Below are positions 16,232 through 55,705 of a stretch of DNA of 64,000 bases, in pieces (the first letter of the stretch is position 1; every line of letters starts with the position of its first letter). The DNA is taken from contig OZ024743.1 in NCBI GenBank assembly GCA_964016885.1, forward strand, positions 15,562,001 to 15,626,000, given 5' to 3'. The stretch comes from Eledone cirrhosa (Eukaryota). The notes under the pieces are model-generated. The model was not told the DNA's origin. It saw only the letters and a list, made by a program, of their open reading frames with translations, and made no database searches. The translations under genes and the position numbers were made by a program.

Positions 16232-17404
16232 GAAAATTATTCGGTACAGTGCTCAGTGTTTTCATTCCCCAGACAATTGTTTCACTGCCAAATAGGAATG
16301 AAAGCCTCATTTCTGAGGAAGTAGCCCTGTGATTATCACTGTCTCTTCTCCAAAGCAATACTTTCACTTCCTTCTCTCTGGGGCCCAGCTGAGATAAGCT
16401 GCTCAAAATAAGGTGTAGATTTTACAACCTACATATTTCTTCCTCTGTTTCTTCCTATTGTTATTTCTTCTTTCCTTTTTTAATTTTTCTTTTTTTATTT
16501 TAGCATATTCTTTAAACATGTGTGTAAATGACAAAGTATTCCACATTTAACATTGTATGAGATGTTTTACATACCTAATTTCTTTTGGAATTGTTGAATT
16601 AAGTGGAGGCTATGGTACAATGCATTTCCTCAAAATGGTAGGACTGTATTGAGAGCATCATTACCATAAAGCAGACTTCTAGACAATTGCAAGTGCCTAC
16701 ATCCATAAAACTGAAACCAGTTTTAAGACTCCACCACATCATCTATATTCTTGTCACTAATTGAATAAATAATGGGAAAAATACAATACTTAATGACTTA
16801 GCATGTCAGTTAAATTGATCACTTCTGCATGAGTTGTCTGCTGCAACCACTGGGAAGTTTAATCAGGCTTAATTTAAATATTTTGATAAGCAACTGCATT
16901 AGAGGATTTAGAATAAGATTATGCAAGACATTTTTAGTGCATAATTTTATTGTTTTTGAATAAAATTCAAATCATATGAATTTAAAAAAACATTACAAGT
17001 TTATGGAAAAACATTTTTGTACAGTCAACCATATTTATTTTTCAGTAAAACAATGTTGCATAAATATCATGGCATAAACTAAAGAATATAGGTTGAAATC
17101 AACACAAGTACATGTGTGTCTGTGAATGTTTCAGCATGCATACATGTGTATGTGCATATAGGATGGAAATCATATGTTAAATGATGATGTTGATAACAAC
17201 AACATATCACTATATATATCTTTGTATCTCTCTCCTTCTCTATCTTTCTTTCTGTCTATATATAGCTTAATGGGTTGTAACTAAATGTTACTATTGCTGC
17301 ACCAACTTGAGCCCACAATGAATACGTGGATCCATCTTAGTATAGTATGTGGTGTTGTACATTTGGTGTATACAATAGTGAGTCTCCTTCATAAGTATAA
17401 TAAT

Positions 17405-17589
17405 AATTGTTTCTACTTTTGGCACAAGGCCAGCATTTACCCCAGTGCATTACTGGTGCTTTATATTAACAACCCTGTAAGGATGAAAGGCAAAGTTAAC
17501 CTCAGCAGGATTTGAACTCAGAACGTTAAGGGTCATAACTCTATGCTGAAAAGCATGGTGCCTGATGCTCTAACGAATCTGACAATCCA
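17405..17589 (-). mobile_element. tRNA-derived SINE, full length
   Basis: Same family. The tail abuts (TAA)n. Confidence 0.9.
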
Positions 17590-17630
17590 TAATAATTAGT
17601 AGAAATGAGATATCAAAGTATCATCATTAA

Positions 17631-17864
17631 TGCTTTAGCATTCAAACCGGTCATATGTGGCCAGAAATCTCTCACCTCTTTCTGTTCAAACCTGCTGTAA
17701 CTGGCTGCTCATACTGATGTGAAATAATATCACAATAAAATAATATCACAATTAAATAATATCACAATATCATAGATTCGATATTATGTGAGATAATTAT
17801 TTGAGTAAAAGCCTTTACTGTAGAAATATTATCGTAAATATAGAGGAATGTAAATGCTAAAGGG
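17631..17864. mobile_element. TTAA-flanked MITE (piggyBac-like termini)
   Basis: TTAA|tgCTTTAGCATT ... AATGCTAAAGGG|TTAA, with an internal 3x AAATAATATCACAAT repeat. An identical right end AATGCTAAAGGGTTAA recurs at ~39979-39994. Confidence 0.65.
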
Positions 17865-17874
17865 TTAAGTTTAT

Positions 17875-17969
17875 TCAGGTGTGACATGAGTTTTGCAATT
17901 GATCAACTCCGGGTACGATCTTTATCGATCGGTCCCAACTCTGGAATCAATAGCTCATCAGACGCCTGA
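17875..17969 (-). ncRNA. type I hammerhead ribozyme motif with a core mutation (GAAA>AAAA)
   Basis: Minus strand reads TCAGGCGT-CTGATGA-GCTATTGAT...ATCAATTGC-AAAAC-TCAT-GTC-ACACCTGA. Stem I is 7/8 paired, stem II is long, stem III is minimal, the cleavage triplet is GUC, and AATAAA follows. Confidence 0.75.
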
Positions 17970-18099
17970 TGTCCTTAATGAGAGAAGATATCTGCATACT
18001 GCTTTAAATCGCTATGTTGCACTCTATAATTAAAATATTGTGAAATTCTCTTATGGTATTTCGTTCTCATTTATATGTACTTTCTCAGTTAACTTGCCT

Positions 18100-18400
18100 G
18101 TAATCTTCTTACATGCCTTGTGCATCCATAGCTTATACTGTGTATACATTATAGAAATCTCTGCCCACTTCTTTTTGATACATTGACCATGGTCATTTCC
18201 TTGATGGCATCATATTTCTAACCTTTTCCGTACTTATTGCAAAGTTTACTTTTAGGCCTTTTTATTCTAGAAATACTTCCATGTCTGAAATTTGGTCTCT
18301 ATTTCTTCCAAAGATTCAGCTATAAAAGTTAAATAATCAACACAAGGAGCATCCATAGACAACCAGTCTTAAATTCCTTTTCATGGACATAAAACAATTA
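18100..18400 (-). mobile_element. degenerate RTE LINE fragment
   Basis: Minus-strand EFKTGCLWML (region just upstream of YADD) and a decayed Cys-rich WPCSxCxKxVG..KLWMHK segment parallel to 53840-53930. Confidence 0.5.
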
Positions 18401-18835
18401 TTATCAGAAATAAACTGAAGACTGAGTTTTGGTTGACATCCACCTACATGACAAATTCATCTGAGTACACATTGCCAACTCTCTCCTTCTTCCTTCCAAC
18501 ACACATGCACAAACACACAGAGATATATGTATGAGCAGGTGAGAGTTGTCACGAACAAAAGAAATGCAATCAACACAGTGTGCAAGTTGAATATATTTAT
18601 ATTAACAGTTTGTTTTGGGTGATGTAAAAAATATATCAAACTGGTCTGTCTGTCTGTCTGAGGATAGTAGACGTGTTTCATATCGCTCCGTGATTCGGAA
18701 TTTTACCTGCTATATTTGTGAGTGAATTTTTTTGAATTCTTTTGTATCATTAACTCTAACCCCTAGTCTGGGACTCTAGACGTAGGGTAATTATATTTTC
18801 ACCCCTTTTGGGGTGAAAAATAATTAACTCAAAAA

Positions 18836-20098
18836 ATGTTTATCGATATCGTTGATAACGATATCGTCGAAAACGATATCGCCATATTGGAAGCGAACGC
18901 CACGCCTACCAAAAAAACAAGCGGGAAAGAGGAAACAACAGTTCAAACTGTTGAACAGCCCCTCCTCTCCAATGAAAAAAAAAAGAATATCAATTCAAAT
19001 GAAAAACTGAATTTTGAAGGAAAAAAAAATAACACCACAAATAAGGAAACCAACATTACAACAACAAACAAAGACAAAATTTCTTTTGCCCAAACACTCA
19101 GCAGAGCCACGGAATACAAAGCCATAGACATCACGAACGCCAAGGAAAATTTGCTAGAGGCTAGAAAATACGTATCTTTTGGGGAAGATGGTTCTTTTAC
19201 GATCAACTCCCCAGAAGAAGTGCGTCAACAGATTTACAATAATACCGTAACCTACAGAACCATAACCAACGAAACGAGAAAGCCAGCGCAATTGACCGAA
19301 GGTCAAATTGAGCTGGTTTTGAAAGACATTAAAAAGGACATACTCTTTATTCAAAAAGGAAAGCTGTATGCCAGCATTATAGTCCGAATGAAGGACGAAA
19401 TGCTGGCTCAGAAATATTCGGTGGCACCTATAGTGTCACCACAATACACCTTCTTCCCCACATATAAAGGAAGAAGAACACAAAGGATAAGAATGTGGAG
19501 CCCTACGCCAGAAATTAACATCTGGTCCGTCCTAACAGGATTTACCGACCTAGATAAGGACATACTCATTTCAGCAGGGGAGTCCACCAGTGGACTGTTC
19601 GGGGGGAAAAGTCTGGAGGTTCTCTTACAGATGACACCTGAGAGAATCTCCGGAATACCCGACCGAGTGCTACTGGATGGGAGAACCTACATAAATATCA
19701 CAGTGGAAGGCAGGCGACCCTCATGTTACCACTGCGCTGGTAGAGGTCACCTGAGGACGGCCTGCCCTCTACTAACAAAAAAACCACTGCTACAAACACC
19801 ACAACAACAACAAAAACAACCAGCACCACCATCACAAAAACAACAAAATACACTACCATCACCACCAGAAGACAACAAAAACCAACAACAACACCACCAC
19901 CACCACAACAACAACAACAATATCAACAACAGCTCAAGAAAACAACCCAAAACACGGTCCCACCCAGCCCCACCCCACAGAACACAAATACAAAAACACA
20001 CGCAGTTCATACACAACCCGGAGATATACCCCTCCCCTCCAATACGGAAGAAGAGCTCATATCGTCGGAAGACGAGGGGGCTCCCTTCCAAGAAGTGA
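18836..20098 (+). CDS. Tx1 ORF1 nucleic-acid-binding (gag-like) protein; C-terminus frameshifted
   Basis: 420-aa ORF with zinc knuckle CYHCAGRGHLRTAC and a Q/P/N low-complexity tail. An alternative frame (DIPLPSNTEEELISSEDEGAPFQEVKRKK) suggests the original frame continued to 20599. Confidence 0.85.
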   Translation: MFIDIVDNDIVENDIAILEANATPTKKTSGKEETTVQTVEQPLLSNEKKKNINSNEKLNFEGKKNNTTNKETNITTTNKDKISFAQTLSRATEYKAIDITNAKENLLEARKYVSFGEDGSFTINSPEEVRQQIYNNTVTYRTITNETRKPAQLTEGQIELVLKDIKKDILFIQKGKLYASIIVRMKDEMLAQKYSVAPIVSPQYTFFPTYKGRRTQRIRMWSPTPEINIWSVLTGFTDLDKDILISAGESTSGLFGGKSLEVLLQMTPERISGIPDRVLLDGRTYINITVEGRRPSCYHCAGRGHLRTACPLLTKKPLLQTPQQQQKQPAPPSQKQQNTLPSPPEDNKNQQQHHHHHNNNNNINNSSRKQPKTRSHPAPPHRTQIQKHTQFIHNPEIYPSPPIRKKSSYRRKTRGLPSKK

Positions 20099-20314
20099 AA
20101 AGGAAAAAACGTACACACACCACACAAACAAAAATAACCCCACCTGACAACACAACACAGACAATAAAACGCAAACTCACTCAACAACAACAAGCAAAAA
20201 CAAACACAACACAAAAACTCTACACATACATAAAAAAAAAACAATAAAAACCTAACTGAAAAAATAGAAAACAACCCTTCGATACAAACCGAAGGGCCGA
20301 ATTTCGTAACGGCA

Positions 20315-20599
20315 ATGGGGCTCCCTAACCTGAAAATGGTGAAAATCCCACTTGAGATTTTCAAAACTTTGAAAGACATTTACCCTGAGGACGTGGGCCC
20401 ACCCTGCACCAGGCCACTCAACCGCGTCCTCCTGAAAGGTTTTCCCCTCCCCTCCTCAAACACCCACACAACTCCAAAGATCCCAACCCCTCCACACACT
20501 AATACCCCCACACCACCACAAACCACCACCCCACCCATCAACCCCTCCACCAGCCCCATGGAAACTGAGCGGCCCGAACCCCAGGACGCAGAGAGGTAA
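20315..20599 (+). pseudogene. probable frameshifted C-terminal part of Tx1 ORF1
   Basis: Same A/C-rich composition as ORF1, P/T-rich, and ends 23 nt before the ORF2 ATG. Confidence 0.6.
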
Positions 20600-20622
20600 G
20601 TGCCTCTTTCTTTGCCACCAAC

Positions 20623-23600
20623 ATGGCTGTCTTAAGAGTAGGTTGTCTAAATGCGCGTGGCCTGGGCTCACCGTGGAAGCAAGCTAAACTTCTAAGTGAC
20701 CTCGGGTCACAATGTATAAATGTGATGGTTATTTGCGAGGCCCGGATCAGCAGCATGCGACAGCTAGCCCCCACCTTTGATGACTTTGAGATGCACGCAT
20801 CTCTCTGTCAGCCCGGAGGTGGGGGTGGGGTTGTCGTTCTGCTGCAAAAACATCTGGGTCTCGCTACACAGACGGTACACTTGGACCCGGAGGGTCGACT
20901 CGTGGTTCTGGACCTTGGCAATGGTGAAGGCGAAGCTTTTAGGCTAGTCGCCGTATACGCCCCTTTTGGGGCAATGCTGTCGGATTTCTTCCATCGTCTG
21001 GAGACTTTTCTAGGGACGTCCCGCTCCTTGCTTTTAGTGGGGGACTGGAATGGTATCCTAGATGCACGTTGGGACTATGTAGGGGCATGTCCCGATAGAG
21101 GGGGGTGCAACAGCCTTAAGGGGTTAATCGGCCGATTTGACCTGGCCGATAGATACCGACTAGATTTTCCAACTGTACCAACCTGGACCTGTTCAAATAA
21201 CAGTGGTCAATCTAGATCGTACCTAGATAGGTTCTTAGTTAGAATTAAGGATAGGGACTTTTTAAGTTGTCCAGAAATGCTCATGGTGGGCTATTCAGAC
21301 CACAAGTTAGTGACCTGCGTAGTCCACCTTGATAGAACGCATAGGCAGGGGCCCGGTTACTGGAAGCTCAACTTGTCCTTACCGGCAAGTAGAGCTTACA
21401 GGGACCGGATTAGAACCTTAGTTAAGGAGCGGTTGACGGGCGCCATCGTCAACAACAGGTGGTGGGGCTCTCTAAAAAGAGAGATTAGAGTAGTTTCAAT
21501 AGGAGTTAATAAGGAGTTAGCCTCAGATAGAAATAGGAAGGAAAGGGAGTTGGTAGTTAATGTTGAAGAGGCAATGAGAAGCGGCAACGTGGCCAGAGTG
21601 CAAGCGTCGAGAACGGTCTTGAACCAGTTCTTCGACGCGAAACACGAAGGCTGCGTTGTCCGAAGCAAAATACGTGCTCTGGGAAACGAGGGGACCAAAG
21701 CTGTTAGCTGGGCCCGCGTGACAGAAGCGAAAAGTGGGATTAAATCCACTATCCGGTCTTTGCGAGACCAGGATGGACGGGTGATCCTTGAACCTAAGCA
21801 AATGTGCGAGGCCTTTCAAAGGCACGTTGCCCAATTGTTCGGGAGGGGCGGGGGGCCGGTTGGAGATGTGGATTTCGGTCCATACCTCGACAGCCTGCCT
21901 CGTCTTTCGGACAGGGAGGCGAGGTCCTGCGACGGGCCGATCTCAGCAGCTGAAATAGGGGACGTGCTGAGCCTATGCGGCAAACGCAAATCTCCAGGAC
22001 TCGATGGTCTGCCCTACGAACTATATATTAATATGCCGGACTTGTTCCCCGATCTCCTCGAGGCGGTCTACTGCAACTGGCAACAGAACGGGAGAATTCC
22101 CTGTTCTGTGACCAAGGGCGTAGTCTCGCTAGTGAGGAAGGACGAGAACAAGGGGGATGACATTAGTAATTTTAGGCCCATAACTCTGCTAAATGCAGAG
22201 TTAAAGATTTTGGTGAAGGTGTTAGCGAAGAGGTTGGCGCTTGTCGTGGGGGGCCTGGTGGGAGATGCGCAGACATGCGCTATCCCGTCCAGGTCCATCC
22301 ACAACAACCTCCACCTCATGCGATACATCATAGAGAGGGTTGGGAACGAACCCGGCTTTGGTGGGGCCCTGATAAATTTAGATCAGTCTAAAGCATTCGA
22401 TAGGGTGGACCATGGTTACCTGGATGCGGTGCTAGCGGCGGCTGGGTTCGGACCCGTTTTCAGGGGCTGGATCACTGCCATGCACAGCAGCCGCATCTGC
22501 TCTAGAATCAAGGTGAACGGCTACCTTTCGGAGCCGTTCGAAATCACCCGCTCCATCCGACAGGGGTGCCCTCTCTCCTCCCTTCTGTATGTACTGGCTC
22601 TCGAGCCATTACTGCGGAAGTTGGAGTTGTTGCAGGGCATCCCTTTGGAACCGGGATTGCGCAAAGCGGTGTCGGCCTACGCCGATGACGTAACAGTAAT
22701 TGTGTCGACCACCTCGGAAATCGAGGCAATCGGCACCTTACTAGAGGAGTACGAAAGGTTGACAGGGGCTAAGCTGAACCGGGACAAGTCAGTCGCTTTG
22801 CAACTCGGCGAGTGGAGGGGCAAAGCGATGTCGTGCGACGGTATCGTCGGACGGTGGACGGAGGGCCCGGTGAAGTTGCTTGGGGTCTGGTTCGGACCGG
22901 ACCTCCAGGTGGAGAAAAACTGGGGTGAGGTGACGAATAGGGTGTTTGCACTGACCCAGAAGTGGGCCGAGTGCAAACTATCCCTAAAAGGTCGGGCGGA
23001 GGTGGCGAACGCTTACATAGCGTCCGTCATCTATTACCGCTTGACTGTCGTGCCTTGCCCGGGTGAGATCCTCGCCAAAATGGAGCGCGCCCTCTTTTAT
23101 TTCCTTTGGAAGAAGAGGTCTCCTCTGGTGAGGAGATCCATCTGCTGTCAACACCCTTTGAAAGGAGGGCTGGGGATGCCGTGGCTAAAAATGCGTAAAC
23201 ACGCATTGAGGCTAAGGCACCTCCACGTATTCCTCACCGGTCAACCGGTGTGGGCCCCGTTTGTGAGGCGAGCCTTCCCGAGGCTCGTCTCGCTCACCGA
23301 GCTGCAGTCCTGGGTGAAGCAAAGACCGAGAAAACTGGGCGACTGGCACACCGAGTGTGCCCAGGCGCTCACGGATCTCTGGCAGGCGGACCCGGCTATC
23401 GACGGAGACTCCACCTCGTCATTCTATAGAGGGCTGGTGGTTAGCGGGTGCGACGACGCCCTCGGAGAAGCCCTAGGCATGGAGGAGGACGAACTGGCCA
23501 GTCTATTCGGTAGGACTTTCGGCCCGGGACCTATGGACAACTTCCAGAAGTCCTTGGCCTGGCAGTGCTACCGAGGGCTCTGCCCGTTCGGGATAAGCTC

Positions 23601-24059
23601 TACAGACACGGGCGCCCGGGTAGGGACCCCTCGAAAAAGATCTGTCCCAGATGCGTACGCGACGAGGAAACCGTCGCGCACGCATTGGTGCACTGCCCGG
23701 GCGTTGCCGATCTGTGGGGCTATGTCGAACAACTGCTGTCACGGGTGGGACCAATTAGGTTGACCACCGAGTCCATTGTAACGATCAAGCCGCCTCCCCC
23801 CTTCAAAAATGAAGGAGACGCGGTCTTCCTCTGTGTAATAGCCATGGTAAAAGAGGCTATATGGTGGACGCGTCTGAAAGGGCTGAGGTCGGACACCTTT
23901 CTCTCCGGCCAACAACTGGTCCTTTTCTTCCGATACCATTTCGGAAGAAGGATCAGGATGGAGAGAGAGGTGCTCCACTCCAGCAAGTTTTATGAAAGGT
24001 GGGTGAAAGTTGCGAGAATGGCCCGTGTGAATGGGCCTTCTCTCTACCTCAGCCTGTAG
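20623..24059 (+). pseudogene. Tx1 ORF2: apurinic endonuclease + reverse transcriptase + C-terminal CCHC, with a single frameshift near 23575
   Basis: APE motifs NARGL, GDWN, YLD and SDH; RT motifs PGLDG, KAFD, RQGCPLS and YADD. After WQCYRG the frame shifts to ALPVRDKL..CPRCVRDEETVAHALVHC (ORFs 20623-23763 and 23565-24059). Confidence 0.92.
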
Positions 24060-26673: not shown

Positions 26674-28254
26674 TCAGTTTATATTACTGCATAGCTTAAC
26701 GAGGCCAATGCACCCTTCGCCCAGAACGGGTCGTAGTTCTGTATGTTGATGGTGTGTGTGGGGGGGGGGGGAAGAAATAGGCGAATGTGGCAAAGAAAAA
26801 GAAGGGGGCATTTGAATTTCAAGTGTCATTGTGTCATTCTCCAGGTTTGCTCGTTTGAGACGATCAACGGAAACCGTTTCCCTGGAACCCCGAATGTCCA
26901 GTGTGAAATGTTTGTCTGTGCGAGCAAGCACACGATAGGGTCCAGAGTACGGCCGTCGAAGAGGGGGTCGCACGGCGTCGTCTCTAACGAACACATGTGT
27001 CCACAAGGCAATATCCCTTGGGACGGCAGTTTTTACAGTCTGCTTCCTAGTGCCCATCGGTGGTAGATCCTTGAAATAAGAGTGAAGCCGGGACACGTGG
27101 GAAGCGGGGTCCTGCGAAGTCAGGTCAAAAGGGGCCAGCATTTGCCCCGGTAACGCCAGAGGAGTACCATAAACTAATTCGGCAGAGGAGAACCCAAGGT
27201 CCACTTTTACCGTCGACCGAATACCCAACATCACAATAGGTAGGTACTCGCTCCAACGTGAAGAGTCCATGGAAGCCCTTAAGGAGGCTTTGAGTTGCCT
27301 GTGGAATCTTTCCACCATTCCGTTTGATGCTGGATGATATGCCGTGGTTCTTATGCGAGTGGCGCCAATAATTTGTGTTAATTCACGGAAGAGGTTCGAT
27401 TCAAATTGACGACCGCGGTCTGTTTTTATTGTGGTTGGTACTCCAAAACGAGCGATCCATGCAGATACGAGAGTACGCGCTGTCGTTTCAGCAGTGATAT
27501 CTGTCATTGGGATGGCTTCAGGCCAACGCGAAAAACGGTCAACGATCGTCAAAATATACGAATAACCACGACTAATCGGTCACGGGCCGACGATGTCCAT
27601 ATGAATGTGACGAAATCTGGCATCAGGACAGGTGAAAGTTCCGAGAGGAGTTTTAACGTGCTTATAAACTTTTGACTTTTGGCAAGCGACACAGGAACGG
27701 CACCAAGCAGCAATGTCACGTCTCATATCAGGCCAGAAAAATCTGGCTGTTATGAGTTTTACTGAGGCTGATACTCCAGGGTGAGAAATGCCATGTAAAG
27801 CGAGAAACACAGTTCGTCGATGTTCCACTGGGACTAGAGGTCGTGGTGAGTCCAACGAAACATCACACAGTATTTGTCCGTCAGCCGTTGAGATCGGAAT
27901 GTATTTCAGTTTGCAATGTACAAAGTCTGGCGATGTAACATCCAACGATTCGAGAGTGGGTTGAGCAGCTGCCATTCGATGTAAATCTATCTTTTCGGAA
28001 GACGAAATCGATGCGATCGGCAGGCGAGACAGCGCATCGGCCGCTGTATTCAAAGAACCCGGAATATGTTGAATGTCGTTCGTGAACTGAAGTCCAGATG
28101 TCTCGTCTCTCTGGGCGAGTATTTGTCTGCTTTAGTTCCAAGAGCAAACGTCAAAGGTTTATGATCAGTGAAAATGGTGAATGTTCTACCTTCAAGTACA
28201 TGAGCAAAATGTTTCACAGATAAATAAATTGCTAATAGCTCCCTGCCAAAGGTG
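26674..28254 (-). pseudogene. pol: RNase H C-terminus and integrase of the Gypsy element, frameshifted
   Basis: HHCC zinc domain (HGISHPG..CRSCVAC) in ORF 27580-28053. DDE core (TDRGRQF, GMVERFH) and GPY-like PYSGPY in ORF 26674-27552. RH motif FTDHKPL at ~28155-28175 is in another frame. Confidence 0.9.
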
Positions 28255-30612
28255 CTATAGCGAGTTTCGGCAATTTAACTTTCTCGAAAATAAATCGAGT
28301 GGTTGCTGTAACCCCTCACACTTCTGCTGTAAGACTGCGCCCACGGCGCTATCCGAAGCATCAACACAGAGCGACAGCTCGGCGTTGGGCATGGGGTGGG
28401 CGAGCAAAGATGCAGTCGCTAACGCTTTCTTCACTTTCTCAAAATCCGCCAGGTGCGTTGCATTTAATGAAATGTTCATATTCTTCTGTCGACAGTTTTT
28501 AAACATTTCTGTCAACGAGGACAGTAAGCTGGAACAATTAGGCACGAATCGCCTATAAACATTCACAAGGCCCAAGAATTGCTGTAATTGTCGAAGCGAA
28601 TATGGCGGAGGCAAATCCAAAATTGCCTTAACTTTTTCCGGAAGGGGCCGAATACCATCAGCATCAATAAGATGGCCCAAAAATGTTAGCGATGTCGAGC
28701 CGAAAACACACTTAGTGGCATTAACATGAACATTATATTTCTGTAAACTCCGAAATAAGATATCCAAATGTGTGGAATGTTGTTCAGGAGAAGAACTAGC
28801 AATCAGTACATCATCGATATACGTGTAAACAAAATCGAGAACACGAGTGACATCATCCATGAATCGTTGGAAAGTACTTGCAGCATTTCTAAGTCCGAAA
28901 GGCATAGTGAGGAACTCGAATGATCCGAAAGGAGTGGTAATAGCAGTCTTTGGAATATCCTCCTTTTTAACCGGAATTTGATTATAAGCGCGGATCAAAT
29001 CAAGCTTAGAAAAGATTCTGCAACCCTGCAATGACGATGCAAAATCCTGTAAATGCGGGATTGGATAACGGTCAGGCACAGTAATCGCGTTTAAGCGTCG
29101 GTAGTCACCCGTCGGTCTCCACTCACCAGAAGATTTAAGTACCATATGCAGAGGCGATGCCCAAGCACTTGTGGAAAGCCGAATTATTCCTAATTCCAGC
29201 ATGTGGTCGAATTCAAGACGTGGAGCTTTCAACTTCTCTGCAGATAATCTTCGAGGACGTGAGAAAACAGGTGGACCTGTAGTGGATATAAAGTGTTCAA
29301 TCACATGATCCGGACTAGCAATTCGTAATCTTCCTTGCGTCAGCTGTGGGAATGATTTTAACAAACTGTGATACTGGTTGCCCACTTCAGCCAAGAAAAA
29401 AGCAGGTCTTACTGTGGCGATCTCCGGCTTTGAACCCTCGAACGATAGGCCTGTATTAGCATCACAAAGTCGTTGTCTGCGGATGTCAATCGACAAGGAA
29501 AAATGGTGGAGGAAATCCGCTCCCAAAATGGCATATGGCAAGTCGGCGATAGTAAACTTCCACTTCAATTCACGACGCAAATTTTTAAACCGAAGAGGAA
29601 GCGAAATTTGCCCGTACGTTCGAATGGCCGTGTTGTTGATTGCTCGTAAATTGATATTTGATTCAGATGGGTTTTTTTTAAGATAACTGACTGGCCAAAT
29701 ACTTAGTGACGCGCCAGTGTCGACAAGAAAAAAATTTTTTGACTGCAGATCGTACACAAAAAGATGACGGTTTGGTCGAGTTTCCCAGAGTTCACTAGCC
29801 GCCCCTAGTGGCTCTGATTGGCGTTTTCTCCTATAGTTGCAAGGCGCCCGACTGCCAAAGTTAACATGATACCAACAAATCGAAGAATTACTGCTGCCTG
29901 AAGTGTAGTGTTGGCGAGGAACAGAAGATGGTGGCGAACGGTACTCGTAGCGGTTTCGAGGAATAGCAGACGGAGACGAACGGTACCTTAAACGTTGAGA
30001 AGGCTCTCTATGTTGTACAGTCAAATCTTCTACCTTTTTGGTGAGAGCTTCAATCAACTCCAACAGTTTGCTGTCGGCCACAGAAGAATTGCGTAGGGGG
30101 ACGCAAGCTGAAGCCACATAAGGATTATGCCGATTGCTGTTCGAGTCCACCTCAAGTATTCTATCCGCGGACGCGGCAAGTTGCTCTAACGACTCCCTCT
30201 CCAAACTATTAACCAAAAACCTTTGCGCACTTGGCGGTAAACGTGAGAAAAAGAGCTGCTTTATGAAGGGGGTGTCAATCCCCTGGGAGTCGCTCAACTC
30301 CCGCAAATGTCGCAAATAGGAGCTCGGCTTCCTGTCACCCATTTGAGCATCGTCCAACAACTCCTGAAAACGACTCTCTACCGACTTAGTATTTCTCCGA
30401 AGAATTTCGTTTTTTAATGAGCCGTAGGTAACGTCGGCGTCCAAATCTGTCACAACGTCCTTCACCGAGAATGCCAAGGAAACAGGTAGGCCATTGATCA
30501 GGACCTTCAGCTTATGCTGTTCTTTTGTCTTGGTTAATTCAAAGAAACATTCCAGCTGCGCAAACCACAACTTGATGTCGCTTGCGAAGGACGGCAAATG
30601 ATGTTGACTCAT
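28255..30612 (-). CDS. gag-pol: gag-protease-reverse transcriptase-RNase H (partial) polyprotein
   Basis: 785-aa ORF with WFAQLE gag start, CWYHxxFG motif, protease VDTGA, RT MPFGL and YIDD, and RH VDAS. Confidence 0.93.
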
Positions 30613-30954
30613 GGTGTCACGTATTTGATGAATTGTTGGTGTTGGTTAATAGTTAGCCAGGTGTTGCTGCTGATGGCTGGTACTTGGTGGTAGCCGTTTT
30701 GAAATACTGCTAATTTTTTTTCTTTAAGAAAAAATTCTAAAGAAAATTTGAATAATAAAAAAAAATCATTTTCCATGAAAGTTATGACAGAAATATTGTG
30801 CAGGCCGCGTGCTTCAACAAATGGAATATTATGAATTTTATGGGCTTACTCTAAGTGAGTCTAGCTACCCGATTCGAACATTCCAAATGTTAAGCCACTC
30901 CACATTGCCGTTAAAGCGAATGGCGAATTCAAATAGGCTGCGTTTTCATACTTA

Positions 30955-36840: not shown

Positions 36841-36929
36841 ATCTTCCGCTGAGGACTGCCTCCGGATTATCTGTTACAAACACAACTTTTCAGGGCGAAA
36901 CAGATTAATCTTTAATCTGTCCAGGAGAT
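36841..36929 (+). ncRNA. type I hammerhead ribozyme-like motif
   Basis: ATCTTCCG-CTGAGGA-ctGCC...GGGC-GAAA, perfect 9-bp stem III ACAGATTAA/TTAATCTGT, GTC triplet at 36919-36921, and stem I partner CAGGAGAT. The stem II closure is offset by 2 nt. Confidence 0.7.
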
Positions 36930-55264: not shown

Positions 55265-55705
55265 GCGGATTCCAAATGTAACTGTAGAGATAGATCTAAA
55301 TGTCCGTTAAATAACAACTGCTTAGTTAAAAATATAGTATACAATTGTAATGTTAATACTGACTCTAATTCTTTTAACTACGTCGGTTCCACATCGACGG
55401 AATTTAAATTTCGCTATAATAACCACAAGAATTCTTTCACAGATCCAAGCAAAAAATCTTCAACGGCACTATCAGGCGTACTCTGGCAACTTAAGCTAGA
55501 TAACGTTAGATATTCGACGGCTTGGAATATAGTCTCAAGAGGGATTCCTTTTAATTCATCATCTGAGACATGTGACCTCTGCGCAGAGGAGATATTCTTT
55601 ATACTAAAATCTAAAAATTCCCTTAATCTACGGACAAATTTATTCAGTTGTTGCAAACATAGATTAAACTCAACGTTTAAATATAAATTTAAATTTAAAA
55701 TGTAG
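55265..55705 (+). pseudogene. Penelope-like element GIY-YIG endonuclease C-terminal region (ATG-less open frame, 146 codons)
   Basis: Manual translation: KCNCRDRSKCPLNNNCLVKNIVYNCNVNTDSNSFNYVGSTSTEFKFRYNNHKNSF..STALSGVLWQLK..WNIV..TCDLCAEE..LNLRTNLFSCCKHR. It contains a Cys cluster, NIVY/YVG (GIY-YIG), R..H and CxLC motifs typical of Neptune-type Penelope elements. Confidence 0.85.

What the first reader, a model, noticed from the sequence alone, without database searches (positions are those of the whole stretch)
17875..17969. Antisense hammerhead with a long nested stem II, apparently disabled by one CpG transition
Seen: minus-strand stem I TCAGGCGT/ACACCTGA, CUGAUGA, a ~60-nt stem II with inner CGATC/GATCG hairpin, AAAAC-UCAU-GUC, then AATAAA. 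The only core defect is GAAA>AAAA (T at 17894 where C would create a CpG). Inference: a retrozyme or Penelope pseudo-LTR-derived dispersed repeat, inactivated by methyl-CpG decay. Its sequence differs from the other hammerheads here, implying several independent families in one 64-kb window.
Basis: partly seen in the sequence, partly recalled or inferred. Interest (0 to 1): 0.7.

Follow-up and report, generated by a model that had tools for sequence, protein, structure and literature searches.

The report
Decayed hammerhead from Penelope-like retrotransposon
This is the broken tail end of a Penelope-like jumping gene, whose hammerhead (predicted self-cutting) RNA motif carries many mutations rather than one, while younger relatives in the same genome spread with a stepwise altered core that is predicted to cut poorly.

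Summary
The hammerhead motif is real and sits where stated. It is the 3' pseudo-LTR end of an old subfamily of a Hydra-clade Penelope-like element (PLE), not a retrozyme. The same 60-nt-stem-II motif lies in sense 0.9-2.8 kb behind RT-endonuclease ORFs, or inverted before them (12 of 20 loci; control family 1 of 29). The family has GCGAAAC, and G12>A is a CpG hotspot (8 of 36 copies; CpG transitions 27% vs 7%). But 'one transition' is wrong. The copy differs from its subfamily at 15 of 101 sites; three changes destroy the helix III palindrome needed for dimers, and a TTAA-flanked element splits its tail. More interesting is the lineage. Along an endonuclease-tree ladder the core goes CUGAUGA (old) > CCGACGA > CCGUCGA (youngest, 954 exact hits, near-intact ORFs), while GAAA, palindrome, GUC and the long arm stay. 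Cleavage is untested; covariation in the arm is not significant. The scan reported long-armed and mismatched-core Hydra hammerheads before on other DNA of this genome; CCGUCGA was met in no finding.

The parts
17970..18010 (-). 5'-truncated start of the PLE end; includes CATTAAG (17980-17974), the 5' strand of a distal stem I in the family
   Evidence: blastn match to family starts at 18009; identity to four longer copies drops beyond about 18010-18020
17962..17969 (-). proximal stem I, 5' strand; three private changes versus subfamily A (17969, 17966, 17964)
17955..17961 (-). core C3-A9, CUGAUGA, intact
17895..17954 (-). 60-nt stem II with inner hairpin (17931-17927 / 17920-17916); 45 of 60 columns identical in five subfamily consensuses
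17891..17894 (-). G12-A15 read as AAAA; G12>A at 17894 in a family CpG
17883..17890 (-). helix III / loop and GUC; family palindrome broken at 17889, 17887, 17886; predicted cut after 17883
17865..17882 (-). stem I 3' strand, AATAAA (17875-17870) and start of the distal stem I 3' strand
17631..17864 (.). 234-bp inserted element with terminal inverted repeats, TTAA on both sides (17627-17630, 17865-17868); piggyBac-like MITE (label recalled)
   Evidence: inverted arms I5; similar copies in several other loci
17600..17630 (-). displaced 3' tail of the PLE end
   Evidence: blastn hit; 26 of 32 identical to tails of L003 and L010

Best explanation
It is a roughly 175-bp, 5'-truncated 3' end of an old Penelope-like retrotransposon subfamily of likely Hydra clade, carrying a type I hammerhead motif that likely cut the parent RNA as a dimer and is now predicted to be inactive after many mutations and an insertion. 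Shown: the family, its place behind the ORF, the changes in this copy, the CpG excess, the insertion. Inferred: in the parent, two pseudo-LTR hammerheads of a partial-tandem transcript paired through the ACGCGCGU palindrome to build helix III and cut after GUC, just before AAUAAA, trimming the RNA. Reverse transcription primed at a target then stopped early and left this solo end, which decayed neutrally. G12>A is one of several CpG hits, not the event that silenced a working element. Later subfamilies of the lineage replaced CUGAUGA by CCGACGA and then CCGUCGA and kept spreading, so fast cleavage is likely dispensable for the lineage.
For: Motif in sense downstream of the endonuclease end or inverted upstream in 8 of 29 loci with 1.5-kb flanks and 12 of 20 with 8-kb windows, against 1 of 29 for another PLE family. 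Subfamily A copies share an upstream non-coding tract of over 1 kb and abut ORF remnants of this endonuclease type in L123, L119, L218 and L099. L213 has an 861-aa frame with DKT, RILWR, YRDD, CxCX5C, YIGAT, CxxC and CxH, matching section 11 of PMC8557442 and, by eye, its Hydra alignment. In 36 copies chosen by the 5' 23-mer only: GAAA 23, AAAA 8, palindrome 7, all three of GAAA, palindrome and UH 5; CpG transitions 185 of 680 vs 46 of 647 at non-CpG C/G, p=5e-23. Head-to-head inverted partners (6 of 40 within 300 nt). Endonuclease tree ladder A > C > D > E with 98/99 and 100/99 support. CpG divergence falls from 26-34% (A, B) to about 20% (C) to 2-4% (E). Dimer requirement and low activity of metazoan PLE hammerheads: PMC4209133, PMC6765202.
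Against: No cleavage data. No complete subfamily-A element was found; its link to the ORF rests on inverted junctions and on sister subfamilies. Pfam and PDB gave no match for the ORF, so RT/GIY-YIG identity rests on motifs and a by-eye comparison; RWK appears as RILWR. This copy pairs better than its consensus in stem I (7 vs 5 of 8) and in the inner arm, which neutral decay does not predict. Covariation in the arm is not significant (3 pairs with two-sided change vs 4.4 shuffled). The MFE of the A and E consensus does not form the hammerhead arm. The tree holds only 3 A, 1 C, 2 D rows and no B row.
Confidence: 0.85

Rival explanations
1. The copy descends from a minor master with a better-paired stem I and a two-pair helix III that could cut as a monomer, so G12>A alone silenced it.
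For: Stem I 7 of 8 pairs, reached by 1 of 40 subfamily copies; changes at 17911/17910 extend the inner helix; 5' core intact.
Against: No close sibling among 40 scored candidates (best others 80-88%). The pairing changes are shared by 0-3 of 40 copies each. Two of three loop changes are ordinary CpG transitions. Two-pair helix III monomers were inactive in PMC4209133. Restoring G12 in silico leaves 4 of 8 dimer pairs.
Confidence: 0.08
2. A non-autonomous retrozyme: short tandem repeats making circular RNAs.
For: Type I hammerhead with palindromic loop III; one same-strand pair 203 bp apart (L045).
Against: 1 such pair among the first 100 listed places; copies are solo or head-to-head; upstream tract over 1 kb and ORFs found; retrozymes are 150-450-bp tandems (PMC7229834).
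Confidence: 0.03
3. The hammerhead fold was never catalytically important in this lineage; the arm and palindrome act as a protein- or RNA-binding signal or as DNA promoter sequence.
For: Core eroded in the youngest subfamilies. A/B proximal stem I has only two pairs before a mismatch. 45 of 60 arm columns invariant, with no significant covariation.
Against: The oldest subfamilies keep a perfect 13-nt core. All keep GAAA, GUC, C3-G8 and stem I next to the core, which improves to four pairs in E. U4C stays functional in vivo in a viroid (PMC3088659).
Confidence: 0.2

Closest known systems
Hydra-clade PLEs and their hammerheads (Craig et al. 2021, PMC8557442; section 11, passages, supplement rows and part 2 read)
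   Same: C-terminal endonuclease ORF with DKT, CxCX5C, CxxC and CxH; sense hammerhead near the 3' end; inverted 5'-truncated copies; ends often at TA/ATT repeats.
   Different: All Hydra hammerheads listed in File S2 have 3-7-bp stem II, 3-10-nt loops and a ctgaNga core. Here stem II spans 60 nt, the tract behind the ORF is 0.9-2.8 kb, and younger subfamilies have CCGACGA or CCGUCGA. Hydra-1_Obim has a different, short hammerhead.
Metazoan PLE minimal hammerheads (Cervera and de la Pena 2014, PMC4209133; parts 1-2 of 4 read)
   Same: Type I, short helix I, tiny palindromic helix III, predicted dimers, mostly solo dispersed copies, some opposite-strand pairs.
   Different: Their helix II is 6-8 bp and often has a bulge after A9; here no bulge and a much longer arm. 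The core variant they report is U3-A8, not U4C/A6U.
Metazoan non-LTR retrozymes (Cervera and de la Pena 2020, PMC7229834; passages read)
   Same: Type I hammerhead in a dispersed animal repeat.
   Different: Not a 150-450-bp tandem; has an autonomous parent.

Membership tests
Type I hammerhead ribozyme | C3 U4 G5 A6 N7 G8 A9 | tested here: met
   17961-17955; consensus core as in PMC3088659. Not met in subfamilies C/D (U4C) and E (U4C, A6U)
Type I hammerhead ribozyme | G12 A13 A14 A15, U16, H17 | tested here: not met
   G12>A in this copy; met in all five subfamily consensuses
Type I hammerhead ribozyme | Stems I and II closed next to the core | tested here: met
   (U-A 27 of 28; G10.1-C11.1 or G-U 26 of 28)
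Type I hammerhead ribozyme | Stable helix III or palindrome for dimers | tested here: not met
   4 of 8 dimer pairs in this copy; 8 of 8 in consensus
Type I hammerhead ribozyme | Self-cleavage after H17 | not testable with these tools
   needs an in vitro assay
Penelope-like element | Hammerhead-bearing pseudo-LTR downstream of an RT-endonuclease ORF, in sense | tested here: met
   9 of 20 loci sense downstream, plus a 5' partial copy in L213; shown for sister subfamilies C, D, E; for A only by inverted junctions and L099
Penelope-like element | 5' truncation and inverted 5' copies | tested here: met
Hydra clade | DKT instead of DKG; no GxKF/Y; CxCX5C linker; CxxC and CxH in the endonuclease | tested here: met
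   L213 ORF: DKT 128, CNCKKRAEC 712, CRLC 810, CRH 837, no GxKF/Y; an unaligned DKG also occurs at 555
Hydra clade | RWK motif | tested here: inconclusive
   RILWR at 38, no RWK
Hydra clade | Insertion into (TA)n | tested here: inconclusive
   microsatellite near 19 of 40 5' ends and 20 of 40 3' ends, no background control
Hydra clade | Placement in a tree with published Hydra proteins; absence of CCHH | not tested
   published sequences compared by eye only
Non-LTR retrozyme | 150-450-bp tandem repeats, non-autonomous | tested here: not met
Non-LTR retrozyme | Abundant circular RNAs | not testable with these tools
   needs RNA data

The most novel reading that the evidence does not exclude
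This Penelope lineage is a dated natural series in which a ribozyme is turned into a non-catalytic RNA signal. The core goes from CUGAUGA to CCGACGA to CCGUCGA while the element keeps amplifying, and the 60-nt arm, GAAA and self-pairing palindrome are retained to dock the element's protein or to pair two RNA ends. That makes the open question of what PLE hammerheads are for directly testable.
Probability: 0.3. Interest if true: 0.6.

Novelty: new variant of a known kind. Interest (0 to 1): 0.33.

Why it matters
The copy itself is a dead repeat fragment and matters little. Its lineage bears on why Penelope-like elements carry hammerheads, which PMC8557442 calls unclear. Three successive cores in one lineage, the most altered in the youngest subfamily, allow a direct comparison of cleavage rate with transposition success. 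It also warns genome scans in two ways: CpG decay removes G12 in old copies, and it recreates a canonical-looking CUGAUGA from CCGACGA (4 of the first 100 hits, as two independent hits predict).

Tried and rejected
Rfam: no hammerhead match at E<=1. A GIY-YIG frame beside L032 looked like the parent but belongs to another PLE family with its own short hammerhead, nested in the upstream tract; rejected. The ORFs in L045 and L127 have their own 3' ends and served as outgroups. An apparent ORF end inside the upstream tract was non-coding. One search was mis-aimed at a SINE and gave nothing. The RTE-type fragment at 18078-18488 lies beside the copy but no link was seen. '3'-truncated copy' was rejected once the tail was found beyond the insertion. 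The subfamily C consensus CUGAUGA is a sampling artefact, because those copies were chosen by that motif; one search corrects it. Formal covariation was not significant. Pfam and PDB searches of the ORF were blank. Sequencing runs: no RNA holder listed; the contigs laid say nothing on expression. Lunse et al. on PLE dimers is not held and was seen only as a reference. My window scans cover type I order only, so permuted hammerheads would be missed. Literature searches for a 60-nt stem II or U4C/A6U cores in PLEs found no description; subscription papers, Repbase/Dfam and unseen supplements may hold one.

Full report
Observation. The minus strand at 17969-17875 reads as a type I hammerhead: stem I, CUGAUGA, a 60-nt stem II, AAAA in place of GAAA, a short helix III, GUC, then AATAAA (fold z -2.4). 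Rfam does not detect it, and a descriptor score is within the shuffled range. It is nonetheless real, because it belongs to a dispersed family in the 3.0-Gb genome: 43 matches from 40 scored of 1246 candidates, best others 80-88%; 206 exact hits to a 23-mer spanning the 5' core, control 0; and 12 exact hits with an intact 3' half.

Is one transition the defect? I fetched 40 of the first 48 places (8 skipped as already held). These are chosen by the 5' half only; 36 span the motif (4 dropped below 70% identity). GAAA survives in 23 of 36, AAAA occurs in 8, the helix III palindrome survives in 7, and GAAA, palindrome and UH together in 5. Transitions at consensus CpG columns are 185 of 680 against 46 of 647 at other C/G (p=5e-23). 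Methylation as its cause is inference; octopus transposons are reported to be weakly methylated, though more than repeat-free intergenic DNA (PMC9476566, passages), and the host is cephalopod-like only by my recall of its repeats. The window copy differs from the consensus of its subfamily (A, 40 copies) at 15 of 101 positions, a typical load. Three changes turn the self-complementary ACGCGCGU into a sequence with 4 of 8 dimer pairs (-2.6 vs -13.3 kcal/mol), and restoring G12 in silico does not alter that. Metazoan PLE hammerheads with such short helix III need dimers and cut slowly (PMC4209133; PMC6765202). The good stem I is private (consensus 5 of 8; 1 of 40 copies has 7), a point that neutral decay does not explain well. 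A 234-bp element with inverted ends and TTAA on both sides has inserted at 17631-17864, and the family tail resumes at 17630-17600. Homology upstream ends near 18010, so the insertion was about 175 bp from the start.

Parent. Longer A copies share a pyrimidine- and T-rich tract reaching over 1 kb upstream. A first candidate ORF was rejected: of 29 further loci of that family 1 had the motif nearby, and it has its own hammerhead. Two A loci abut another endonuclease type in inverted orientation. Searching with it gave 150 scored matches; the motif lay in sense downstream or inverted upstream in 8 of 29 loci and in 12 of 20 longer stretches chosen for closeness to the query or long frames. L213 holds an 861-aa frame preceded by a partial pseudo-LTR and an inverted copy. 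Pfam and PDB were blank. The motifs DKT, CxCX5C, CxxC and CxH and the lack of GxKF/Y match the Hydra clade, and the sequence follows the published Hydra alignment by eye; RWK appears as RILWR. Retrozyme-type tandems are rare (1 pair in the first 100 places).

The lineage. Copies sort into subfamilies A to E with consensus distances forming a chain (A-B 7, B-C 8, C-D 13, D-E 13, A-E 25 of 101, with C's core biased by sampling). A and B have CUGAUGA. A degenerate pattern for C/D gave 837 hits; of the first 100 listed, 63 read CCGACGA, 17 CCGATGA, 16 CTGACGA and 4 CTGATGA (counted by hand), which fits a CCGACGA master with independent CpG decay. E has CCGUCGA: 954 exact hits, control 0. These counts come from patterns of different length and are lower bounds, not comparable copy numbers. 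CpG divergence outside the selecting motifs is 26-34% in A/B, about 20% in C and 2-4% in E, including 11 E copies chosen by ORF. In an endonuclease tree of 26 rows, A rows branch first, then C, D and E (98/99 and 100/99); E rows have 1 stop among 12, A rows 5 among 3. So the canonical core is likely ancestral. PMC3088659 (passages) reports that U4C lowers activity in vitro yet supports a viroid, and that A6C cuts at under 0.1 per minute; A6U with U4C is therefore predicted to be poor, untested. All subfamilies keep GAAA, the palindrome, GUC and 45 of 60 arm columns. The arm is 86% paired in 28 selected copies but shows one clear two-sided change, and pair-count measures do not exceed shuffles, so its structure is predicted, not proven.

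Mechanism. Most likely the parent's two pseudo-LTR hammerheads paired through the palindrome and cut after GUC, ahead of AAUAAA (inferred). Early-terminated reverse transcription left this solo end (inferred from 5' truncation), which then decayed and was interrupted (shown). It is predicted to have no present activity. The rivals are a monomeric minor master silenced by G12>A (0.08), a retrozyme (0.03) and a never-catalytic scaffold (0.2).

Comparison and novelty. It works like the PLE dimeric hammerheads and sits in a Hydra-type element. It differs from the Hydra hammerheads of File S2 by the 60-nt arm and, in younger subfamilies, by the core. My searches found no description of either. Earlier notes of this scan describe long-armed and mismatched-core Hydra hammerheads elsewhere in this genome (unchecked notes, read after my reading was formed); none matched this sequence or the word CCGUCGA.

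Verdict. A real but ordinary dead fragment of a known kind of element; the lineage-level core erosion is the part worth an assay. Interest 0.33.

Noticed in passing
window 36841-36929 (+): Second, unrelated type I hammerhead repeat: CUGAGGA core intact, full 8-bp helix III, 8-bp stem I in relatives (6 of 7 near the core here); 40 matches at 85-94% from 1382 candidates; predicted to fold as a monomer; parent not identified.
   Followed up: partly
G000 subfamily E, e.g. L221:5900-6120, L213: Youngest subfamily carries CCGUCGA with near-intact ORFs; 954 exact hits.
   Followed up: yes
G000, places: CpG decay converts CCGACGA back to CUGAUGA in 4 of 100 listed copies.
   Followed up: yes
window 55271-55675 (+): Endonuclease fragment of another Hydra-type subfamily, 39% identical to L213.
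   Followed up: partly
window 17396-17589 and loci L010, L012, L013, L019, L023, L029: A very abundant SINE often sits directly behind the ATT-rich tail of this element in the same orientation; likely shared target preference.
   Followed up: no
L056-L084: A very abundant second PLE family (36,980 first-look candidates) with its own short hammerhead; one copy nested in the upstream tract of L043.
   Followed up: partly
family-wide, flanking the core: A distal stem I (CATTAAG/CTTAATG in A and B, CATTAC/GTAATG in C, GCATTT/AAATGC in E) brackets AAUAAA in an internal loop; register shifts between subfamilies, not formally tested.
   Followed up: partly
window 18078-18488 (-), 18824-23763 (+), 26674-30645 (-): Decayed RTE-type fragment, a two-ORF LINE with a 1064-aa frame, and an LTR-retrotransposon frame (labels recalled).
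   Followed up: no
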